Shown: positions 10,355 through 19,632, numbered from the stretch's first letter. The stretch is 64,000 nucleotides of DNA from Escherichia coli (GCF_041248615.1 NZ_CP158426.1); one strand, 5' to 3'. Numbers and translations: made by a program. The notes: generated by a model from the letters alone, not told the origin.

Positions 10355-10732
10355 TCACTCCTGACCAAAATCTTTCCACACTAATGCATGAGACTTTGAT
10401 TTATCACCCAAAAATTTACTTACATCTTTCCAAAGTAAAGAATTGCTATCGGTCGCAGTGACTATTGCCTCTATAAGCCCTGTAGCTACAACTGTGGCCA
10501 ATTCATCATCAATCGAGACCATACCATCTTCGACATGTTTAAATATTTTTTCTCTTTCAATATCACCCATTTCATAAAAATTTTTTACAATCGTTTTTCC
10601 AATCTGAGAGAACAACATAACCACCGGTGGAGTTTCTGGATGCCAGTATTCATTAGCTAATGAGACTGTCTCAGACAAAACAGTGGAAAACGATGCCATT
10701 TTTTCTATATAATTAGCAATATATTGGTTCAT
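10355..10732 (-). CDS. putative Rhs immunity protein (cognate to Rhs C-terminal toxin)
   Basis: 125-aa ORF whose ATG overlaps the rhs stop (TAATG at 10730..10734, translational coupling); AT-rich relative to the rhs core; hairpin downstream (10299..10345). No recognisable family. Confidence 0.55.
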   Translation of the reverse strand: MNQYIANYIEKMASFSTVLSETVSLANEYWHPETPPVVMLFSQIGKTIVKNFYEMGDIEREKIFKHVEDGMVSIDDELATVVATGLIEAIVTATDSNSLLWKDVSKFLGDKSKSHALVWKDFGQE

Positions 10733-13700
10733 TACTTGCCTCCCAAAGCATTCTGTAAATCCTGAAGAACGTTTTCTGCTGCTGCTCGATCCCCTGGAGA
10801 TGCTGTTGGATTCTTATCCAACCAATCCTGTAAAGCCCTTGTATAATCCTGTGCTTTCAATACATGTCCTCTACCACCAACTTTTTCACCTGTGGCCAAT
10901 TCATAACGAACAGCATCTGCTGTGCTTCCACTTCCTACTTTTGCATTTGGCCGATAAAGATCGTCTATAATATTTTTCAAATTTGAATCTGTAACGTCAG
11001 GTTTTCCCATCTTCTGTCGCAATTCATCTTTATACCGTTCATGCTGCATACGATCTCTTGCGCTATTCTCATCTTCTGGTCCCCATCCTCCCGGGCTTCC
11101 CGTACTGCCACCACCCAGGCAGTTCTTCTCTTCCTCCGTCAAATCCTTCCCGACATTTGGATTCTCTTTTGATGAATCATCATTTCCAAACACGCTGGAA
11201 AAAGCACCATAGGGATCTCGCCAGAATTCCATTTGACTTTGTGCATTTAATAATTCGGCTTCACCCTGCATCTCCATACTTTTCTCAATCGCGTCCCCAA
11301 CAGCCTCGCGATTGTTGTATATTATTATACCACCACCAATAACCACCGTACCGACTGCCGCACCGACTAACATCCCCGGAGGGCCTCCTACCGAACCGAT
11401 CTCTGTACCTACTTCAGAACCAGTTCCCATGGCAGTTAATGCTCCTGCGCCCAACGCCGCACTTAATCCCAGCGGATCCAGCCGTTGCACCGGGTTCAGT
11501 GGATACGCATACAGGTTCCATCCCCCCTTCAGCCCAATCGGATCCTGGGTGATATACCTCCCCTGTAGCGGGTCATAGTACCGGTGACGGTTGTAGTACA
11601 GCCCCGACTCCTCATCATACTGCTGCCCCGGCAGACGGAGTGACTGTTGAAGGTGCTGCGTGCTTTCCTCTCCCAGCAGGTTTCCCCACTCGTCATACTC
11701 CCCGCGCCACGCCGTTTCCCCTTCCGGGCTGATAAGCGCCTGCGGCAGCCCACGGTGGTCACAGTGGTAAAGATGAAGTTTCCTCTCCGGGATGTATTCC
11801 GCCTCCAGTTGCGCCGCCATCTGTTCCGCCGTCAACCCACACTGTGCAAGCCACTGCTGGCTTTCTTCACTCACGCTGCCCTGCCGCAGTTCCCGCTCCA
11901 GCCTCCCCAGCATCACCGCCAGCTCCGCCGGTAGCGTCACACCCGTGTCCTCCTGCAACACCTCCGCCAGGCTACGGTGCCGCGCCTTCGCCTGTTCGCC
12001 ATTCTCTGTTTCGATTCTCAGGAGCGGCGTGAAGCTCCCCGGCTGGTATACCGTCTGGATACGCGTGGTGTCGGTCTGTACCGTCGTCAGCCTGTCGCCG
12101 TCCCACCCGTACCAGGTCACCTCCGGTTTACGCGACAGCGACATCCACCCCGTCAGGTCACGCTCCCGCCGCCACACCCGTTTTCCCGTCCGGCGGCCCA
12201 GCGGGTCATAGAGGTAGCGGCTCTCCACCTGTGGCTCGCCGTGCTGTATCCGCGTGTAGAACACCAGGCGGTGCTGGCTGTCGTAATGGTAGTGGTGCGT
12301 CCGCTCGTCGTGCATCCGTATCACCCCTTCCGGGATACGGTCCGTCTTCTCCGCCAGCCTGCCGTATTCATCGTAGCGGTAGACATAGTGCGCATCTTCC
12401 GTGATGCGGTTATCCGGCCACGCCGTGAAGGTGCTGTCCGGGTGCAGTTCCGGGTCCGGCAGCCGGTTTCCTGCCGGGTCCGTCGCATACGGGATATCAA
12501 TGTCCAGGTTCGCTGCCGTGGTGTGGACGCCCGTCAGCCTTCCCGTGTCGCTGTAACGGTACTCCCGGCTCTCCTGCGGGCCGCTGATGCGAATTAGCTG
12601 TCCGTTGTCGTTCCAGTCGTAGTCACGGTCAAGCTGCGGAAGGTTCAGGTGCCTGCTCCGGAGCTGGCCGCTGGTATTCCAGGCGGTGGCAAGCTCATAT
12701 GCCTCCCCGCCGAAGCTGCGGGCCGTCTCACGGTGCAGCCGGTCCCGCGTGTACTCGACCAGTGGCGTACCACCCAGCTTCATTCCCGCAAGATAACCGC
12801 TGCCATACGTCAGCCACTCCACCGGCGGCAGACCGTCCGGCTCCTGACGGGTCGCCAGCCCCTGTTCGCTGTACGCGTGCTTCGTCTCATGCTCCCACAG
12901 CATCTCCCCCGTCTCCGGGTTCTCCACCGTCTGCCGTTCGCCCGTCAGGCGGCCTTTATCGTCGTGGCCGTAGTGGACCGCCACACGGTGGCCTTCGCTG
13001 ATATGGCTGATTTCTGTCAGCCAGCCGTGCTCATCATACTGCCACTGCTCCGCCGGGTCGCCGTTCACCGTCCGGTGCGTGATGCGGTCCGACGCATCGT
13101 AATGCCAGAGGGTGATAAGCCCCTCATCTTCACTCTGCGTGAGTTTTCCGGTCAGGTCATAGTGGTAACGTTGCGTCCGCCCGTCAAAGCCGCGCTGCTC
13201 CGTCAGCCTGTCCACCGGGTCATACCGGAACGTGGACTGGCTGCCGTTCTCGTTGGTCAGCACGGTGGTGCGACCGGCGGCGTCATACCCCATGCTGCGC
13301 GTCAGTCCGCCTTCCGTCACACTCACCGGACGCCCGCGTTTATCATATTCGATGGTGCTGCGTTTACCGTCCGGTGATATCGTCGCTGTCAGGTCGCCTG
13401 CGGTGCTGTACTCATAACGGGTTTCACGCCCCTGCGCATCCTTCTGACTGACCAGTTGGCCACGCGGGTTATAACTGCTGTAAGTGCTGATGCCTTCTTC
13501 CCGGTGAACGGCGATTTGTTGACCGTACCGGTCATACTCATACCGCGTCGTGTACCCCGAGCAGTCCGTAAACGCCTGAAGCTGACCGTACCGGTTTCGC
13601 GTTATTCTCCGCATCACCCCGGTTCCGTCTTCCACCGCGCCGGGCAGGCTACTGCGGGGGGAGTCATAAAACCAGCGCGTAATGTTACCGTTGCGCGAGA

Positions 13701-15231
13701 TCTCTTCCGCCAGCCTGCCCTGACGGTCATATTTCCGGCTGCTGCGCAGCCCGTCCGGGTACGTCACTGACGTCAGTTGCAACTGGTTGTTGTAACCATA
13801 CCGTACCGTCCTGCCGTCCGGAAGTATCACTGAAGTCAGCTTTCCAGACGCCATATGCAGCCGATACTCCGTCCGCCGTCCCGCCGCATCCGTCTGCGCC
13901 TTCAGCCTCCCCGCCTCATCATACTCGCTGCGGGTGATGCTCCCGTCCGCATGTTCCTTCTTCACCACCCGCTTCAGGCCACCTTCGCCTTCCGTGTACA
14001 GCACCTCCCGCCTGTTCAGGCTGTCCGTGATGATTACCCGGCTCTCTCCGTACTCAAAGCGGTAGTCCAGCCCCTCCGGGTTGACCTGCTCCGTCACCCG
14101 GCCGGTATCATCATACCGGTAGCGGCTCTCCGGCCTCCCCGCATAATGGTGCGCCACCATCCGCCCGGCGTGCGCCACATCATAAGTAACCCCGCGCACC
14201 TGCGTCCCGCTGCGGTCATACACCGCCCGCAGTTCTCCGCTGGCCGTGTACGTGTAGCGCGCCAGCGGCGCAGTCGGCTGTTCATCCGGGTATGCCGGGT
14301 CGTGTGTCAGCCACACCGCCTCCAGCCGGATACCGTTATCGGCACCGTATTCTGTACCGACGGGCAGCGTATCGGGGAAAACCTGAGAAGAGGAAACAGA
14401 ACGGGGACCGGCAGGGGAAGATAAGGAAGACTCGCGCTGTTTACGGGACGCTTCCGCCCGCTGTGACTGTGTGGTCAGCGCCAGGTGAAAACAGCGGCCC
14501 GCGCCGTCCGTCACCCTGGTGATTTCACCAGCCAGTTCGCCTGCGGCCTCGCGGTGGAAAGTCAGTGAACGCCCGAAGCCGTCCACCACGCCCGTCAGCA
14601 CCCGGTATGCGGGTGGCTCCGGCGGCAACACCTCGTCCACCCCCGGCACCCGCTCCGGCCAGCCGAGTACCAGCCACTGCCCGGTTGTGCTGACAGCCAT
14701 CATATAGGTGTGTGGACTCAGGCGGACCGCTTCCGGCAACGCCCGCCAGAGCCGGGCCAGCGGGTGGCCTTTCTGCTGTTTCAGCACCCCGCCCCGCGCC
14801 AGCCAGAACGACTCGCTGCGGCTGTAGCTTATCTCGCCGGGAAACAGCGGCTCAAAGTGAATGCTCCTGCCGCCGCTGTCGTTGAGTATCAGGCCTTCAT
14901 CGCGTATCTGTAAGCGGATATCGAAGGGGGCTTTCCAGCCGGGACCAAACACCCCCACCGGCGCGGGCGTCCTGGTCCGGTAGCTGCTGTAGGCGCGGAA
15001 AAGAACAAACGGCAGCGGGCCGGACAGTGCCAGGTCGGTTTCAGCAGGCAGCACCTTCGCTCCCAGCAGCGGGTTTACCGGATTACCCTTCTGCTCCTCT
15101 ATCGGGCTGTTGGGACATACCGAACAGGCCACACCGGTTGGCGCACCTATCAGCACCCCTGCTGAACCCTGCACAATATCCAGTCCCTTGCGGGTCATGT
15201 CACCCTGCCGCGCCGCCGGTTTTCCACCCAT
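10732..15231 (-). CDS. PAAR-domain Rhs-family T6SS effector with divergent C-terminal toxin domain
   Basis: 1499-aa ORF; N-terminal PAAR-like domain ([16 protein letters not shown]...), many YD/RHS repeats (RYxYD), Rhs core end with DPxGL motif ([27 protein letters not shown]), then a 243-aa C-terminal tail (about 10735..11463). Confidence 0.9.
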
Positions 15232-15306
15232 GAATCAATTCCTTCTGCTTTTAATATGGTTTATCTGGTCACTGCACCAGTTCCGTTTTAATTTTTTGCA
15301 CCTGAC

Positions 15307-17448
15307 TCAAAATTGCCGCATATCCGGCATTCCGGGGGGTAAATCTTTCGGCACAGGCGCATCCGGTACAGGTTGTGTGGCACCACAGTTCCAGTTAATC
15401 ACCGGCGCATCACCGTTCACATCCGACTCTCCTTCCAGATGAATGTGCGTACCATTGAGAAATATGCTTCCGTCCTTCGTCAGCACCAACCTTGCCTTAC
15501 CGCAGCAGAGTTCCAGATGCTCACCGGCAGAATAAACTGCTGTTTGTCCGGTGTTTTCCTTCATCGTCTTGCCCACCGAGAAGGTGACGTTATTCCCTAC
15601 ATTGACGCTGTAGCCCATTCCCACCATCAGTGATTTATGCAGCCCTACCTGTGAGGACTGCAACAACGCCACCGAGGTATTCATGATGCCGCCTACCGTC
15701 GTCTGGTAAGCCACGCCCACCGTCAGCGCACGAATGATCCCCACCTTTTCAACCTGGTTTGAACCCACTTTGACAATCTGGTTGCTGCCTACCGTTTCCA
15801 CCTGGTTGACACCAACCGTCTGTATCTGATTAACGCCAATGTTCTGGATCTGGTTATTGGTAACGGTGATCGCCTGGTTGTTACCTATTTTTTCGGCATG
15901 GTTGTTTATCACATCCGTGGTGCGGTTATTCAGCACCTCGGTGTTCATGTTCTTCTGCGCGTGGATGTAGACCTGTTCTTTCCCTGTCGCATCGTCAAAC
16001 TTCAGTTCATTAAACCCGCTGCCCTTATAGGTTTTCGAACGAATGGTCATCTGCGTCTTTGTTCCCGGCAGGCTGCCGGGGGTGCGGTTTTCCTGGTGGT
16101 AGGTACGCCCCATAATAATCGGCTGGTCCGGATCGCCGTTGAGGAAGTCCACAATGACTTCCTGACCCACACGCGGTATCGCCAGGTTGCCAAAGCCGGT
16201 GCCTGCCCACGCCTGTGCCACACGGATCCAGCATGAACTGTCCTGGTTTGACGGGTTATAGCGGTCCCAGTTAAATTTCACCCGCACGCGGCCATGTTCA
16301 TCACAGAAGATTTCTTCTCCTGCCGGTCCCGTCACGACGGCGCTCTGCGGGCCGTCCACCAGCGGTTTCAGCAACGGCTGTGGCCGCCATGTTCTGTCTG
16401 CCGGTATTACCGCAAAGTGGTTATTCAGCGTGGTACCTGAACCCCTGCGTCCCGGCACCGCCTGCGGCTGCTCGCCGTGCAGTTCACTTGCCACCACCTG
16501 CCATTCCCGGTTCAGGTTCGCCTGCGGATGCCCCGTCAGCGCAATTCGCCGTCCCGGCCATATCTCCGGCGAACGGCTTGTTCCGCGCGCCACTTCTGCG
16601 TTGTTTCGCCAGCCATCCATCTGCCAGCAGGCAAAGTTCTGCCCGTGGGCACCCTTGAAACGTCCGGGGTAGTCATACACTTCATACTGTGTGCGCTGGT
16701 AATCCTGGTGCTGGCCTTCCTGATCAAAACGCCCTGCCCAGCCGGGTCGTTTAAAGGTGTAGTCTTTGGTCACCACGGAAGATGGGCGGATTTGTGCGCT
16801 GTAGAGGAACTGGCTGATGCATAGGGTGCTCACCTCGGTACGGGTGTTCGGATTCCAGGGGATCTCAAAGGACTCCGGCAGATAACGCACGGTGTCGCAC
16901 AGGACCAGGCTCTGGTCGGTACTTTTTTGCGCGTGCTCCTCATAAAAGAAGATGCCTTCCTCCGCCGCCATCCGGCACAGGAAATCGTAATCGGTTTCGC
17001 CGTACTGGACACAAAACTCACGGGAAGGATGCGGCTCGCTGAACAGCGGACTCCACTCGGTCACCCCGTTTTCTTTCAGGATCGTCGCGAGTATGCTTTC
17101 GATGTCCTCATTCTGGAAGATACGGAAGTTCTGGCGCAGCCCTGTGCGCCACAGCGGTGGGCACACCTTCATGCTGTACAGCATCTGGTTTTTGTCGTTC
17201 TCCCCCAGTTCAAACCAGGTCACCACACCTTTCACCCGGCGCTGTACGTCATCGCCCTGCCATACCGTCAGGTAGGCCATTTTGTCCAGCACCTGCGCAA
17301 ATTCAAGGGAGAGAAACTGCTGGCTGACCAGAGAGAGATCGAGGGAAAAGAGCGAAGAGAGTGACTGGTTCAGATGAAAGGAGACCACCGCAAACGCGTC
17401 CGGTGGCAGGCCGTCCACTTCCAGCGTGAAACGTAATCCGGTTGACAT
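15307..17448 (-). CDS. vgrG: T6SS spike protein VgrG (TssI)
   Basis: 713-aa ORF MSTGLRFTLEVDGLP... with gp27/gp5-like regions and C-terminal beta-helix repeat run (VGxNQ repeats). Confidence 0.92.
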   Translation of the reverse strand: MSTGLRFTLEVDGLPPDAFAVVSFHLNQSLSSLFSLDLSLVSQQFLSLEFAQVLDKMAYLTVWQGDDVQRRVKGVVTWFELGENDKNQMLYSMKVCPPLWRTGLRQNFRIFQNEDIESILATILKENGVTEWSPLFSEPHPSREFCVQYGETDYDFLCRMAAEEGIFFYEEHAQKSTDQSLVLCDTVRYLPESFEIPWNPNTRTEVSTLCISQFLYSAQIRPSSVVTKDYTFKRPGWAGRFDQEGQHQDYQRTQYEVYDYPGRFKGAHGQNFACWQMDGWRNNAEVARGTSRSPEIWPGRRIALTGHPQANLNREWQVVASELHGEQPQAVPGRRGSGTTLNNHFAVIPADRTWRPQPLLKPLVDGPQSAVVTGPAGEEIFCDEHGRVRVKFNWDRYNPSNQDSSCWIRVAQAWAGTGFGNLAIPRVGQEVIVDFLNGDPDQPIIMGRTYHQENRTPGSLPGTKTQMTIRSKTYKGSGFNELKFDDATGKEQVYIHAQKNMNTEVLNNRTTDVINNHAEKIGNNQAITVTNNQIQNIGVNQIQTVGVNQVETVGSNQIVKVGSNQVEKVGIIRALTVGVAYQTTVGGIMNTSVALLQSSQVGLHKSLMVGMGYSVNVGNNVTFSVGKTMKENTGQTAVYSAGEHLELCCGKARLVLTKDGSIFLNGTHIHLEGESDVNGDAPVINWNCGATQPVPDAPVPKDLPPGMPDMRQF

Positions 17449-17614
17449 AGCAACCTCCGGGTTTAAGGAAAAACAGACAGTTCGCTGTTAAAGCGGCTGT
17501 AACAGTACAGTGTTACGCTTGCGTTCAGGCACGCTACCGCCGAAGTTTCCGGCATCCGCCATCTCCCGTGAACGTAACCCCTTACTGACAACCTTTCTTT
17601 TTACGGCGTAATAC

Positions 17615-17647
17615 AAAAACAGCATCCGGCCTAATAGCCGGATGCTG
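17615..17647 (-). terminator. rho-independent terminator/attenuator downstream of hcp
   Basis: Minus strand: cagcatccggc-tatta-gccggatgctg hairpin followed by TTTTTG, between hcp stop and vgrG start. Confidence 0.5.
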
Positions 17648-17657
17648 TTGGCTTAAC

Positions 17658-18176
17658 TTATGCTTCCAGCGGTGCGCGCCAGTCGTCGGCACCGGAGGTG
17701 CCAGACTTGACGTGTTCCCACTCTATTTTGCGGTAGGCCAGTGAAACTTCGAGCAACTGGGTGAACTCGCGTTTCGCCGGATCCTGGCAATGCGGCATAT
17801 GCAGTTTCATATCGACAATCGTCGAATCGGTCAGGCGGGTGGTGAAATAATGCTCCTGTTTGCCTTCCACAGAGGTACGCCACCAGTGAAGTTCAGTGGT
17901 TGGCAGCATTTCGCCGGAGGCCAGTGCGTTGTACATCAGCGGAACAGCTTTGTTCAGCGCCACGGTAAAAATGAACGGCTTGTGAGCACGCTGACCCGCA
18001 GGCTGGCCGGACTGAGGATCGGTCGGGACAGTAACGTTATGCAGGAATTCCTGCACCAGCATCTCGTCTTCGTGCCCCTGCACATAGATGTTGCCGACAG
18101 AATCAGCGGTAAATGCACCTGCAGTAATATTTCCCTGGGTCTGACCAGTGATGGAGATATAACACGGTGTTGGCAT
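17658..18176 (-). CDS. hcp: T6SS tube protein Hcp (TssD)
   Basis: 172-aa ORF MPTPCYISITGQTQGNITAG... typical Hcp N-terminus and length. Confidence 0.92.
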   Translation of the reverse strand: MPTPCYISITGQTQGNITAGAFTADSVGNIYVQGHEDEMLVQEFLHNVTVPTDPQSGQPAGQRAHKPFIFTVALNKAVPLMYNALASGEMLPTTELHWWRTSVEGKQEHYFTTRLTDSTIVDMKLHMPHCQDPAKREFTQLLEVSLAYRKIEWEHVKSGTSGADDWRAPLEA

Positions 18177-18872
18177 TTGTAAACTCCTTGTTAACGTGGT
18201 TAATTACTACTTACAATGACCTGCCGTTAATCCCAGACAGGCAGATGCAGCTCACTTCACGGAACCGCATCATTTTTCAGTATTTTTTACATACAAACCG
18301 AGCTAGAATTTACGGTTGTCGTAAAAACTATTTTTAAAATCATTAAATCTCTTATTCAGCAATAAGTTAATAATATATATCTGGATAACCATACCCAACT
18401 ATTCAAAGTCCGTATTGCCTCCATAAAATGGCCAAAGCTGAATCATGAATAAATATTGTATTTATCCTTTCTGAATTATCATTTTGATAATTTTTGAGAT
18501 ATTCCTTAAAAATACCCACTTAATCAATCACAAAACAAATATATAAACAAGCAATCATCAGATTAGCTTATGTTTAATGAAATTATTATATAATTCAATA
18601 AGTTACATAAAAACTCTATATTTAAATTATTGCCATAATACACCTGACGCGAATTTCGAAGGTTCACACAATCTATTTAACGCTTGCAGAATACCTCTCT
18701 TTACGATCGATAAAAAGTCCTTTTCTTATTTATTTTGAAGCGTAGAATGCGGGGTGATGAAGGAGTGGTGATTTTATTTTCACCGCCATTAGGGCGGCAT
18801 TGCCGATATTTTTTTGCGGTACAAATATGCCGTGTTCATGGCCTGTACGAGATAACATGACGGATCACTTTT
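18177..18872. promoter_or_regulatory. AT-rich divergent intergenic regulatory region between hcp operon and tssB operon
   Basis: About 700 bp, strongly AT-rich, no convincing ORF; separates divergently transcribed T6SS operons. Promoter positions not resolved. Confidence 0.4.
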
Positions 18873-19373
18873 ATGAGCAAAAAATTTGAAGGCAGCGTCG
18901 CGCCTCGCGAGCGTATAAATATATCCTATGTCCCGAAGACGGACGGCCAGACGGCTGAAGTGGAGCTTCCGCTTAACATGCTCGTTGTCGGCGATACCGG
19001 AAATACGCAGGAGACATCCCCACTGGATGAACGTCAGGCAGTTTCCGTTAACAAGCACAATTTCGGTGCGGTGATGGCTGAAGCAGCCATTGGCCTCAAT
19101 TTTACCGTCCCCGCCACGCTGAAGGGAAGCACAACGGACGATGAACTGAATGTGGCGCTGAATATCAAGTCACTGGATGATTTTTCACCGGACAGCGTGG
19201 CCCGGCAGGTTCCGGAAGTTAATAAATTGCTGGAATTGCGTGAAGCACTGACTGCGCTGAAGGGGCCGATGGGCAACCTTCCGGCATTCCGTACCCAGCT
19301 CCAGGCATTGCTGGAAAATGAGGAGTCCCGCGAGCAGTTGCTCAAAGAAATCGGCCAAGTGAGTGGGAAATAA
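18873..19373 (+). CDS. tssB: T6SS contractile sheath small subunit TssB (VipA)
   Basis: 166-aa ORF MSKKFEGSVAPRERINISYVPKTDGQ... typical TssB. Confidence 0.9.
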   Translation: MSKKFEGSVAPRERINISYVPKTDGQTAEVELPLNMLVVGDTGNTQETSPLDERQAVSVNKHNFGAVMAEAAIGLNFTVPATLKGSTTDDELNVALNIKSLDDFSPDSVARQVPEVNKLLELREALTALKGPMGNLPAFRTQLQALLENEESREQLLKEIGQVSGK

Positions 19374-19632
19374 CCACCACTATTTCATTAAACAGGGTTA
19401 TCCAGACATGGCGGCACACAAAAATATCTCCGGGAAAAACCCCCTCTCTGACGAAGACATTTTGCAGGCGGTTTACCGGGTATGTTTCAGCCCGTCCGGT
19501 GAAATCAACCGGGATGGCGTGGATGCGCTGATTACAACACTGGATCGCCGTATCAGTGATCTATTGGATGAGATTATCCATTTTTGTGAGTTTCAGCAGA
19601 GCGCGTCGCACTGGCAGCGCGTACTTCACTGA
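19363..19632 (+). CDS. small ORF encoding a TssC N-terminal-like segment (possible remnant or accessory protein)
   Basis: 89-aa ORF; region DALITTLDRRISDLLDEIIHFCEFQQSASHWQRVL parallels TssC residues DSMIADIDERISRQMDVIIHAPAFQQVESFWRSL encoded just downstream. Expression unverified. Confidence 0.4.
   Translation: MGNNHHYFIKQGYPDMAAHKNISGKNPLSDEDILQAVYRVCFSPSGEINRDGVDALITTLDRRISDLLDEIIHFCEFQQSASHWQRVLH

What the first reader, a model, noticed from the sequence alone, without database searches (positions are those of the whole stretch)
17449..17657. Strong intrinsic terminator between hcp and vgrG
Immediately downstream of hcp on the minus strand is an 11-bp GC-rich hairpin followed by a T-run (17615..17647). 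This fits the usual arrangement in which hcp is transcribed far more than vgrG and rhs, with partial read-through setting their ratio.
Basis: seen in the sequence. Interest (0 to 1): 0.25.

Follow-up and report, generated by a model that had tools for sequence, protein, structure and literature searches.

The report
Known terminator hairpin after hcp
A stable RNA hairpin followed by a run of U's sits just after the E. coli type VI secretion tube gene hcp and stops most transcription before the spike gene vgrG; it is real and evolutionarily conserved, but ordinary, and was described experimentally in EHEC in 2026.

Summary
On the minus strand, 8 nt after the hcp stop codon, a 14-bp stem (17649..17618, 4-nt loop, about -25 kcal/mol, z = -5.5) is followed by UUUGUAUU. 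It is single-copy per genome, not a REP repeat, and matches no Rfam family. Selection maintains it. A divergent E. coli allele keeps the stem through two compensatory double changes. Across 26 sequences from about ten genera, 8 of 14 pairs covary. The arms (0.76-0.82 pairwise identity) and T-tract (0.86) are far more conserved than hcp four-fold sites (0.505) or the loop (0.33). A terminator right after hcp is typical of this Hcp family: 60 of 83 loci versus 6.2 in shuffles. The element is already published as "h3R region I" in EHEC EDL933 (PMC13141884). There, its deletion raised hcp-vgrG junction RNA and cut hcp mRNA to 6%. Partial read-through is likely but not proven. Inducing the hcp promoter raised vgrG mRNA in EHEC, and compact relatives leave no room for a promoter after the hairpin. 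The EHEC authors instead propose a separate vgrG promoter, which is predicted only. In passing, I found a roughly 90-nt noncoding block (17591..17503) after the terminator that is as conserved as hcp itself and has no known mechanism.

The parts
17658..18176 (-). hcp (tssD), 172 aa, the T6SS tube protein; the upstream gene whose transcript the hairpin ends
   Evidence: PF05638 E = 5e-31; annotated as an Hcp family effector in a 100% identical genome
17618..17649 (-). Terminator hairpin T1: 14-bp stem (5' arm 17649-17636, loop 17635-17632, 3' arm 17631-17618)
   Evidence: -25 to -26 kcal/mol, z = -5.5; covariation (8 of 14 pairs with double changes; 93.6% paired against 36-58% when slid); identical arms in O157:H7; corresponds to h3R region I of PMC13141884
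17610..17619 (-). U-tract UUUUUGUAUU; the first two U's are the last two stem bases
   Evidence: most conserved segment of the spacer (pairwise identity 0.86 against 0.505 at hcp four-fold sites); nearly invariant in 26 sequences
17503..17591 (-). Conserved noncoding block: A 17591-17573, B core 17569-17526, C 17519-17503. Function unknown. Overlaps 'region II' of the published h3R.
   Evidence: Alignments; nhmmer finds it in 26 loci, always right after the hcp terminator; pairwise identity 0.77-0.82 against 0.35-0.41 for flanking spacer; not coding (my reading of the alignment); RNA structure not demonstrated
17467..17500 (-). Weak candidate second hairpin (17500-17477, -5.9 kcal/mol) plus T-run CUGUUUUUCC (17476-17467); status inconclusive
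   Evidence: 8 of 17 relatives have a hairpin of -7 kcal/mol or better plus a T-run here, against 3.2 +/- 1.6 in shuffles; absent in several relatives
17454..17458 (-). Shine-Dalgarno GGAGG of vgrG
   Evidence: position conserved in the alignment
15307..17448 (-). vgrG (tssI), 713 aa, the T6SS spike; the downstream gene whose expression is reduced
   Evidence: PF05954, PF22178 and PF04717; annotation
10732..15231 (-). rhs core protein (DUF6531 / RHS repeats), 1499 aa; effector downstream of vgrG
17488..17625 (-). 45-aa ORF annotated in some genomes (WP_001297813.1; EDL933_0238 in the paper); judged spurious
   Evidence: Annotated. Its ATG lies inside the 3' arm of the hairpin. In the divergent E. 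coli allele the frame stops after 6 codons. The internal ATG is lost or the frame is broken in Buttiauxella and by an 8-nt insertion in MS7163.

Best explanation
The hairpin with its U-tract is a Rho-independent terminator that forms the 3' end of a monocistronic hcp mRNA. Because the stable stem sits at that 3' end, it also protects hcp mRNA from 3' exonucleases. Termination is efficient but not absolute. The minority of polymerases that read through transcribe vgrG, rhs and the immunity gene. The tube protein, needed in hundreds of copies, is therefore made in large excess over the spike and effector, needed in a few copies. In this clade the read-through RNA must also pass a conserved block of about 90 nt that further lowers vgrG expression by an unknown mechanism.

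Shown: the anatomy, selection on the stem and T-tract, the family-wide occurrence and, in EHEC, the effects of deleting the hairpin. Inferred: that read-through rather than a separate promoter supplies most vgrG transcription, and any role for the hairpin starting only 8 nt after the stop codon.
For: - Anatomy and statistics.
- Single copy per genome in 2762 E. coli genomes, so not a dispersed repeat.
- Two compensatory double substitutions between E. coli alleles, with a free loop and an invariant T-run.
- Across 26 sequences, 8 of 14 pairs change on both sides, and 0-1 of 500 shuffles match.
- Arms at 0.76-0.82 and T-tract at 0.86 pairwise identity, against 0.505 at hcp four-fold sites, 0.33 in the loop and 0.38-0.41 in flanks. 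A conserved T-tract is needed for termination, not for mere 3' protection.
- Family survey: 60 of 83 loci have a hairpin of -10 kcal/mol or better plus a T-run within 80 nt of the hcp stop. Controls: 15 on the opposite strand, 6.2 +/- 1.9 in shuffles, 0 inside hcp, 7 of 60 inside vgrG. The median hairpin start is +12.
- EHEC experiments on the same element (identity shown): deleting region I raised junction RNA, cut hcp3 mRNA to 6% and Hcp3 protein to 50%. In gfp-h3R-mCherry it halved GFP and doubled mCherry.
- Read-through: inducing the swapped hcp3 promoter raised vgrG3 mRNA less than hcp3. E. asburiae, Buttiauxella, Rahnella and Lelliottia loci have only 28-42 nt, holding just the T-tract and SD, between the hairpin and the vgrG ATG.
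- No sigma-70-like promoter on this strand in the spacer and none conserved at lax thresholds.
- The h3R-mCherry reporter responded by less than 2-fold to any condition tested and was unchanged in an hns mutant.
Against: - No RT-PCR product across hcp3-vgrG3 from the native EHEC chromosome, although each gene gave its own amplicon. The authors conclude these are separate operons.
- Deleting region I alone only doubled downstream mCherry and barely raised VgrG3. Regions I+II had to be removed for clear VgrG3. T1 is therefore not the only barrier, and its termination efficiency is unmeasured.
- No 3'-end mapping or in vitro termination assay exists for this site.
- In Y. pseudotuberculosis a comparable stem-loop after hcp4 did not act as a terminator.
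- V. cholerae hcp-1/vgrG-1 is predicted to have no internal terminator, so the arrangement is common but not universal.
Confidence: 0.75

Rival explanations
1. The terminator is essentially complete, and vgrG-rhs form a separate operon driven by their own promoter inside the spacer (region II of h3R).
For: - No junction RT-PCR product from the chromosome, while hcp3 and vgrG3 amplicons are each detected.
- BPROM and Sapphire predict a promoter overlapping the 3' end of EDL933_0238, with predicted Fis, MalT, NarP and MelR sites.
- A strongly conserved noncoding block lies exactly there and could be a regulator-binding region.
Against: - The promoter is predicted only; no TSS or promoter activity was shown. 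The h3R-mCherry reporter changed by less than 2-fold in all conditions and not in an hns mutant.
- vgrG3 mRNA rose when the upstream hcp3 promoter was induced.
- No sigma-70-like site on this strand at 9/12. At lax thresholds the best recurring candidate is 7/12 and is lost in the divergent E. coli allele, where an 8-nt insertion also changes the spacing.
- Relatives with 28-42 nt between hairpin and vgrG cannot house a promoter.
Confidence: 0.25
2. The hairpin is mainly a 3' mRNA-protective stem-loop (a 'decay terminator') that stabilises hcp mRNA after endonucleolytic processing of a longer transcript. It is not a transcription terminator. This was concluded for hcp4 of Y. pseudotuberculosis T6SS4.
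For: - Deleting region I cut hcp3 mRNA to 6% and halved Hcp3 and GFP.
- In Yersinia, mutating the hcp4 stem lowered only hcp4 mRNA and left downstream genes unchanged.
Against: - The T-tract directly after the stem is the most conserved part of the spacer (0.86) and nearly invariant in 26 sequences. A protective loop does not need it.
- Deleting region I raised junction RNA and doubled downstream mCherry in EHEC.
- The two roles are not exclusive. Any intrinsic terminator leaves a protective hairpin at the 3' end.
Confidence: 0.1
3. The palindrome is a chance feature or part of a dispersed repeat (a REP-like element, given the GCCGGATGC motif) with no specific role at hcp.
For: The arm contains GCCGGATGC, which resembles part of the E. 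coli REP consensus (my recollection; a lead only).
Against: - One place per genome in 2762 E. coli genomes and one match in the window with 0 expected.
- Position and structure are conserved with covariation across genera.
- z = -5.5 against shuffles.
Confidence: 0.01
4. The spacer encodes a small protein, the 45-aa ORF annotated as WP_001297813.1 / EDL933_0238, and the conservation reflects coding constraint.
For: PGAP annotates the ORF in some genomes. The ORF is intact in the window (17625..17488).
Against: - Its start codon is buried in the 3' arm of the hairpin.
- The frame stops after 6 codons in the divergent E. coli allele.
- The internal ATG is AAG in Buttiauxella brennerae, there is an early stop in Buttiauxella A111, and an 8-nt insertion in MS7163 shifts the frame while the downstream nucleotide block stays conserved.
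- Variable positions in the core split 21/18/24 by codon position, my count, so there is no third-position bias.
Confidence: 0.02

Closest known systems
h3R region I of EHEC O157:H7 EDL933 (hcp3-vgrG3 intergenic region; Vazquez-Lopez et al., Microbiol Spectr 2026, PMC13141884)
   Same: This is the same element at the same locus. The O157:H7 spacer differs from the window at 6 positions (97.1% over the 209-nt spacer). Both hairpin arms and the T-tract are identical. The paper describes a 14-bp, 32-nt hairpin at +8 of the hcp3 3'UTR. Deleting it raises junction RNA and lowers hcp3 mRNA.
   Different: The window comes from a different strain background (100% identical to strain 7/2). The paper offers no comparative analysis. 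New here are the covariation, the family-wide survey, the deep conservation of region II, and the evidence against the small ORF and against a conserved sigma-70 promoter.
GC-rich stem-loop downstream of hcp4 in Yersinia pseudotuberculosis T6SS4 (PLoS Pathog 2025, PMC12503267)
   Same: A stable hairpin directly after hcp. The hcp transcript is far more abundant than downstream genes. Stem mutation lowers hcp mRNA.
   Different: In Yersinia the downstream gene is tssE4, and stem mutation did not change downstream transcripts. The authors therefore assign it a 3'-protective role after RNA processing, not termination. Here the stem is followed by a conserved U-tract, and its deletion increased junction RNA in EHEC.
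Leaky internal terminators or intercistronic stabilising hairpins after the major-subunit gene of multi-subunit operons, such as the pap pilin papA and the Rhodobacter puf operon
   Same: The same logic applies. A hairpin after the most abundantly needed structural subunit gives that cistron higher mRNA levels than distal genes. This rests on established knowledge. The puf and pap papers are cited in the reference list of PMC12503267.
   Different: These are unrelated genes and sequences. In those systems differential mRNA decay after processing is the documented mechanism. Here termination is the better-supported primary event.
Vibrio cholerae hcp-1-vgrG-1 auxiliary cluster
   Same: The gene order is hcp followed by vgrG and cargo.
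   Different: [quoted passage not shown] In my survey, 15 of 57 direct hcp->vgrG junctions likewise lack a hairpin.

Membership tests
Intrinsic (Rho-independent) transcription terminator | Stable G+C-rich RNA hairpin on the sense strand downstream of the stop codon | tested here: met
   14-bp stem with 8 G-C pairs, -25 to -26 kcal/mol, z = -5.5, starting 8 nt after the hcp stop
Intrinsic (Rho-independent) transcription terminator | U-rich tract immediately 3' of the stem | tested here: met
   UUUUUGUAUU overlaps the last two stem bases. It is the most conserved segment of the spacer, at 0.86 against a 0.505 neutral baseline.
Intrinsic (Rho-independent) transcription terminator | Structure rather than sequence under selection (compensatory changes) | tested here: met
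   Two compensatory doubles between E. coli alleles. 8 of 14 pairs have changes on both sides in 26 sequences. 93.6% of cells are paired against 36-58% when slid.
Intrinsic (Rho-independent) transcription terminator | Removing it increases downstream transcription | not testable with these tools
   Literature only. Deleting h3R region I in EHEC increased hcp3-vgrG3 junction RNA and doubled downstream mCherry (PMC13141884).
Intrinsic (Rho-independent) transcription terminator | RNA 3' ends map to the U-tract, and termination occurs in vitro without Rho | not testable with these tools
   No Term-seq, 3' RACE or in vitro assay is reported in the papers read.
3' mRNA-stabilising stem-loop | Removing it lowers abundance of the upstream mRNA | not testable with these tools
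   Literature only. hcp3 mRNA fell to 6% and Hcp3 to 50%, or 85% when deleted on the chromosome. The Yersinia hcp4 result is analogous.
REP / dispersed palindromic repeat | Many copies per genome in intergenic regions | tested here: not met
   Exactly one place per genome in 2762 E. coli genomes; one match in the 64-kb window
Any curated RNA family (Rfam 15) | A covariance-model match at or near the gathering score | tested here: not met
   Only noise hits of 19 bits or less with E above 5 in 15000-19500
Small protein-coding gene (WP_001297813.1 / EDL933_0238) | Reading frame and start codon conserved among relatives | tested here: not met
   The frame is truncated to 6 codons in the divergent allele. 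The ATG is lost or the frame shifted in other genera while the nucleotide block stays conserved.
Sigma-70 promoter for vgrG inside the spacer | -35 and -10 hexamers with 16-18 nt spacing, conserved in position among relatives | tested here: not met
   None on this strand at 9/12. The best recurring candidate is 7/12 and is not conserved in the divergent allele. Activator-dependent or alternative-sigma promoters are not excluded.
Structured cis-regulatory leader RNA (riboswitch- or attenuator-like), considered for the conserved block | A conserved secondary structure supported by covariation | tested here: inconclusive
   The RNAalifold consensus is weak (-11.6 kcal/mol, covariation term -0.45). 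A 24-pair candidate structure is 89% paired but no better than shuffles on covariation measures. The sequences vary too little to decide.

The most novel reading that the evidence does not exclude
The roughly 90-nt noncoding block directly after the terminator (17591..17503) may be an uncharacterised cis-regulatory element. It would most plausibly be a leader RNA in the read-through transcript that is bound by a protein or small RNA, or a regulator-binding DNA site. It would gate expression of whatever vgrG-effector cargo follows hcp. Terminator and block together would then form a two-stage checkpoint that keeps spike and toxin off even when the tube gene is on. The block is conserved from Escherichia to Buttiauxella and Phytobacter as strongly as the hcp coding sequence. 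It travels with hcp regardless of the downstream cargo.
Probability: 0.3. Interest if true: 0.45.

Novelty: already known. Interest (0 to 1): 0.2.

Why it matters
The terminator itself is textbook operon engineering. It explains how a cell makes hundreds of Hcp subunits for every VgrG trimer from one promoter region. It also helps explain why forcing the hcp promoter on in EHEC yields Hcp but no detectable VgrG or Rhs, and hence no secretion.

The practical value lies with anyone trying to switch on the silent E. coli T6SS. The hcp-vgrG spacer has to be dealt with, not just the H-NS-silenced promoter.

The comparative results here add two things to the 2026 paper. They show that the hairpin is under structural selection and is typical of this Hcp family. 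They also show that the adjacent 'region II' is a deeply conserved element rather than an obvious promoter.

Tried and rejected
1. REP or dispersed repeat: rejected, single copy per genome.
2. Known RNA family: no Rfam match.
3. The 45-aa annotated ORF and a shorter 24-aa internal ORF: rejected. The frame is not conserved and there is no codon-position bias.
4. Excess RNA structure in the rest of the spacer: none (z = +0.25 without the hairpin).
5. Consensus structure for the conserved block: weak, with covariation no better than shuffles. A G-U versus A-C strand-asymmetry count favours the sense strand. I discount it because most G-U pairs are fixed and the structure was derived from that strand.
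6. Second terminator before the vgrG SD: only 8 of 17 against 3.2 +/- 1.6, and the window's version is -5.9 kcal/mol. Left as inconclusive.
7. Sigma-70 promoter in the spacer: none conserved.
8. Sigma-54 (GG-N10-GC) promoter: checked by eye on the block core. No correctly spaced match. This was not a tool result.
9. CsrA sites: several GGA motifs occur in the block, but only CCGGA and the SD GGA are invariant, about 95 nt apart. The idea is unsupported and rests on my reading.
10. Recurrence of the block core elsewhere in the window as a shared operator: the two 1-mismatch 12-mer hits lie in coding sequence, and the one I inspected shows no extended similarity.
11. Integron attC-like site for cargo swapping: the GTTACG...CGTAAC inverted repeat is in the wrong order relative to the attC R''/R' consensus. 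This was by eye, from memory of the consensus.

Full report
**Locus**

The window is an E. coli chromosome segment carrying the T6SS island next to yafV. It is 100% identical over the queried 501 nt to strain 7/2. On the minus strand lie four genes in a row:
- hcp at 18176..17658 (172 aa, PF05638)
- vgrG at 17448..15307 (713 aa, after a 209-nt spacer)
- an rhs core protein at 15231..10732
- a small downstream gene at 10732..10355

The genes tssB, tssC, tssE, tssF and tssG run divergently on the plus strand.

**The observation**

Eight nucleotides after the hcp stop codon the minus strand reads AACAGCAUCCGGCU-AUUA-GGCCGGAUGCUGUU-UUUGUAUU.
- The stem has 14 base pairs (8 G-C, 5 A-U, 1 G-U) and spans 17649..17618.
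- The loop is 4 nt.
- The U-rich tail, with the last two stem U's, reads UUUUUGUAUU.

A 53-nt segment folds at -26.3 kcal/mol, against -11.2 +/- 2.8 for dinucleotide shuffles (z = -5.5). It is the best terminator-like site in a 12-kb scan. The palindrome pattern occurs once in 64 kb, with none expected.

Without the hairpin, the remaining 162 nt of the spacer folds no better than shuffles (z = +0.25). No Rfam family matches.

**Not a repeat, not a gene**

The spacer occurs exactly once per genome in 2762 of 5426 complete E. coli genomes. The REP-like motif GCCGGAUGC in the arm is therefore not part of a dispersed repeat.

Some PGAP annotations place a 45-aa 'hypothetical protein' here (WP_001297813.1, which corresponds to window 17625..17488). 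The EHEC paper calls it EDL933_0238. Its ATG lies inside the 3' arm of the hairpin. In the divergent E. coli allele the frame ends after six codons. In other genera the internal ATG is lost or the frame is shifted, yet the nucleotide sequence stays conserved. It is not a gene.

**Selection on the hairpin**

About 550 E. coli genomes carry a second spacer allele, roughly 75% identical, upstream of different vgrG-cargo modules.
- The stem there reads AACAACAUCCUGC...GCAGGAUGUUGUU. This is two compensatory double substitutions relative to the window (G-C to A-U and G-C to U-A).
- The loop differs freely.
- UUUUUGUA is unchanged.

A scan of one genome per species for relatives of this Hcp gave 80 loci. 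In 26 sequences from Escherichia, Citrobacter, Yokenella, Pseudocitrobacter, Buttiauxella, Atlantibacter, Superficieibacter, Lelliottia, Trabulsiella, Phytobacter and Enterobacter the same hairpin is recognisable.
- 8 of its 14 pairs show changes on both sides.
- 93.6% of cells are paired, against 36-58% when the partners are slid.
- 0-1 of 500 shuffles reach the observed values.

| Segment (14 aligned taxa) | Mean pairwise identity |
|---|---|
| hcp four-fold degenerate sites (neutral baseline) | 0.505 |
| Hairpin arms | 0.76 and 0.82 |
| T-tract | 0.86 |
| Hairpin loop | 0.33 |
| Flanking spacer | 0.38-0.41 |

Conservation of the T-tract matters. Intrinsic termination requires it, but a stem-loop that merely protects a 3' end does not.

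**Is this the usual arrangement?**

I scanned the 80 nt after each hcp stop codon for a single hairpin of -10 kcal/mol or better followed by at least 5 T in 8.

| Sequence scanned | Loci with such a site |
|---|---|
| Sense strand after hcp | 60 of 83 distinct loci |
| Opposite strand | 15 of 83 |
| Dinucleotide shuffles | 6.2 +/- 1.9 |
| Inside hcp | 0 |
| Inside vgrG | 7 of 60 |

The hairpin starts a median of 12 nt after the stop codon. 42 of 57 direct hcp->vgrG junctions have one. The arrangement is typical of this Hcp family but not universal. V. cholerae hcp-1/vgrG-1, for example, is predicted to lack an internal terminator (PMC3166118).

**Already published**

Vazquez-Lopez et al. (Microbiol Spectr 2026, PMC13141884) studied this very spacer in EHEC EDL933 and named it h3R. 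It has three parts:
- Region I is the 14-bp hairpin at +8 of the hcp3 3'UTR.
- Region II is a predicted promoter with predicted transcription-factor sites.
- Region III is the vgrG3 5'UTR.

An O157:H7 spacer differs from the window at six positions. Both arms and the T-tract are identical, so their data apply here. They reported the following:
- There was no RT-PCR product across hcp3-vgrG3 from the chromosome, and a faint one from a Trc plasmid.
- Junction RNA increased after deleting region I, and increased further after deleting I+II.
- hcp3 mRNA fell to 6% and Hcp3 protein to about 50% without region I (85% for the chromosomal deletion).
- In a gfp-h3R-mCherry construct, deleting region I halved GFP and doubled mCherry.

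The hairpin therefore both limits downstream transcription and stabilises the upstream message.

**Read-through or a separate promoter?**

The authors favour separate operons. Four observations favour leaky termination instead.
- When the hcp3 promoter was replaced by araBAD and induced, vgrG3 mRNA rose too, though less than hcp3.
- The h3R-mCherry reporter responded by less than 2-fold to every condition tried and not to hns deletion. No transcription start or promoter activity in h3R was shown.
- No sigma-70-like site lies on this strand in the spacer. A lax scan of 14 aligned spacers finds none at a conserved position. The best candidate is 7/12 and is lost in the divergent allele.
- In compact relatives the hairpin ends close to the vgrG start codon: 28 nt in E. 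asburiae (a clear homologue of this hairpin), 30 nt in Buttiauxella gaviniae, 32 nt in Rahnella and 42 nt in Lelliottia. That stretch holds only the T-tract and the Shine-Dalgarno. A promoter cannot fit, so vgrG there must be transcribed through the terminator.

I put read-through as the main route at roughly 0.6 and an independent promoter at roughly 0.25. The two are not exclusive.

**A rival for the hairpin's role**

In Y. pseudotuberculosis T6SS4, a GC-rich stem-loop after hcp4 was mutated. Only hcp4 mRNA fell, and downstream genes were unchanged. The authors call it a 3'-protective loop acting after RNA processing (PMC12503267).

The E. coli element shares the stabilising effect. It differs in having a conserved U-tract and in the increase of junction RNA when it is deleted. 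Terminator with built-in 3' protection is the better description.

**What else is in the spacer**

Between the terminator and vgrG lies a block of about 90 nt (17591..17503) that is conserved across genera at the nucleotide level.
- Block A is UUGUCAGUAAGGGGUUACG.
- Block B, the core, is ACGGGAGAUGGCGGAUGCCGGAAACUUCGGCGGUAGCGUGCCUG.
- Block C is AGCGUAACACUGUACUG.

Their pairwise identities are 0.77, 0.82 and 0.78. For comparison, all hcp sites score 0.83 and the spacer on either side scores 0.35-0.41.

An HMM of the block finds it in 26 loci, always directly after the hcp terminator and once per locus. It stays with hcp even where DUF4225 or unknown cargo genes, rather than vgrG, come next. 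It is absent from the compact relatives.

It is not coding. Blocks A and C are mutually complementary and block B can form a stem-loop. However, the RNAalifold consensus is weak, and covariation on a 24-pair candidate structure is no better than shuffles. The sequences vary too little to decide.

A possible second hairpin plus T-run just upstream of the vgrG Shine-Dalgarno is only marginally enriched (8 of 17 against 3.2 +/- 1.6), and the window's version is weak at -5.9 kcal/mol.

This block overlaps the paper's region II. Deleting region II together with region I was needed to see VgrG3. It is therefore functionally inhibitory, but its mechanism is open.

**Verdict**

The element is a genuine, selected intrinsic terminator that doubles as an hcp mRNA stabiliser. 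It is typical of its gene family and has already been described experimentally. Interest is low. The only open lead is the conserved block downstream.

Noticed in passing
window 17591..17503 (-): A noncoding block of about 90 nt directly after the hcp terminator is conserved across about ten genera (pairwise identity 0.77-0.82 against 0.505 at hcp four-fold sites). GGCGGUAGC is invariant in 20 sequences. The block stays with hcp whatever cargo follows. It overlaps the published 'region II', and its mechanism is unknown.
   Followed up: partly
window 17500..17467 (-): A weak hairpin (ACAGCCGCUUUAACAGCGAACUGU, -5.9 kcal/mol) followed by CUGUUUUUCC lies about 10 nt upstream of the vgrG SD. Analogous hairpins with T-runs but different sequences occur in 8 of 17 relatives (shuffles 3.2 +/- 1.6). 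It could be a second attenuating terminator, or nothing.
   Followed up: partly
window 17625..17488 (-): A 45-aa ORF annotated as a hypothetical protein in some RefSeq genomes (WP_001297813.1; EDL933_0238 in the paper) starts inside the terminator stem. It is not conserved as a reading frame and is probably an annotation artefact.
   Followed up: yes
window about 17460..17503 (-); loci L004-L006: The boundary between conserved core and variable cargo lies just after block C. Other vgrG paralogues in E. coli share homology with this vgrG only from about 10 nt upstream of its ATG. The divergent allele carries different vgrG genes followed by an M35 peptidase, DUF4123 or DUF2169 instead of rhs.
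   Followed up: partly
L003 (NZ_OZ501607.1), corresponding to window about 17477: In one clinical isolate the spacer is interrupted after the conserved block by IS3 fragments and a group II intron (ltrA). These replace vgrG, leaving hcp with its terminator and block as an orphan.
   Followed up: no
L007 (NZ_AP045783.1): A rearranged locus. A truncated 102-aa 'tssD' overlaps a 5'-truncated rhs pseudogene, and a fragment of the conserved block lies inside the annotated tssD. tssM and tssA are also pseudogenes. This is a decaying T6SS island.
   Followed up: no
L037, L031, L028, L021 (Enterobacter asburiae, Buttiauxella gaviniae, Rahnella ecdela, Lelliottia sp.): Compact hcp-vgrG junctions of 68-81 nt in which a terminator hairpin and T-tract end 28-42 nt before the vgrG start codon. 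These are natural cases where vgrG must be transcribed through the terminator.
   Followed up: yes
window 18177..18872: A 696-nt divergent intergenic region lies between hcp and tssB, with several weak sigma-70-like sites on both strands. The EHEC paper reports it as the H-NS-bound bidirectional promoter region. It was not analysed here.
   Followed up: no
window 10355..10732 and 3' part of rhs (10732..about 11200) (-): The EHEC paper reports a transcription and translation start inside the 3' region of the rhs/paar gene that drives the downstream immunity gene. The equivalent region of the window was not examined. The 125-aa downstream ORF has only a sub-threshold DUF7674 match.
   Followed up: no
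L001 16667..18129, downstream of rhs and its small partner gene towards yafV: A frameshifted ISAs1-family transposase pseudogene and a second transposase fragment flank the end of the island.
   Followed up: no
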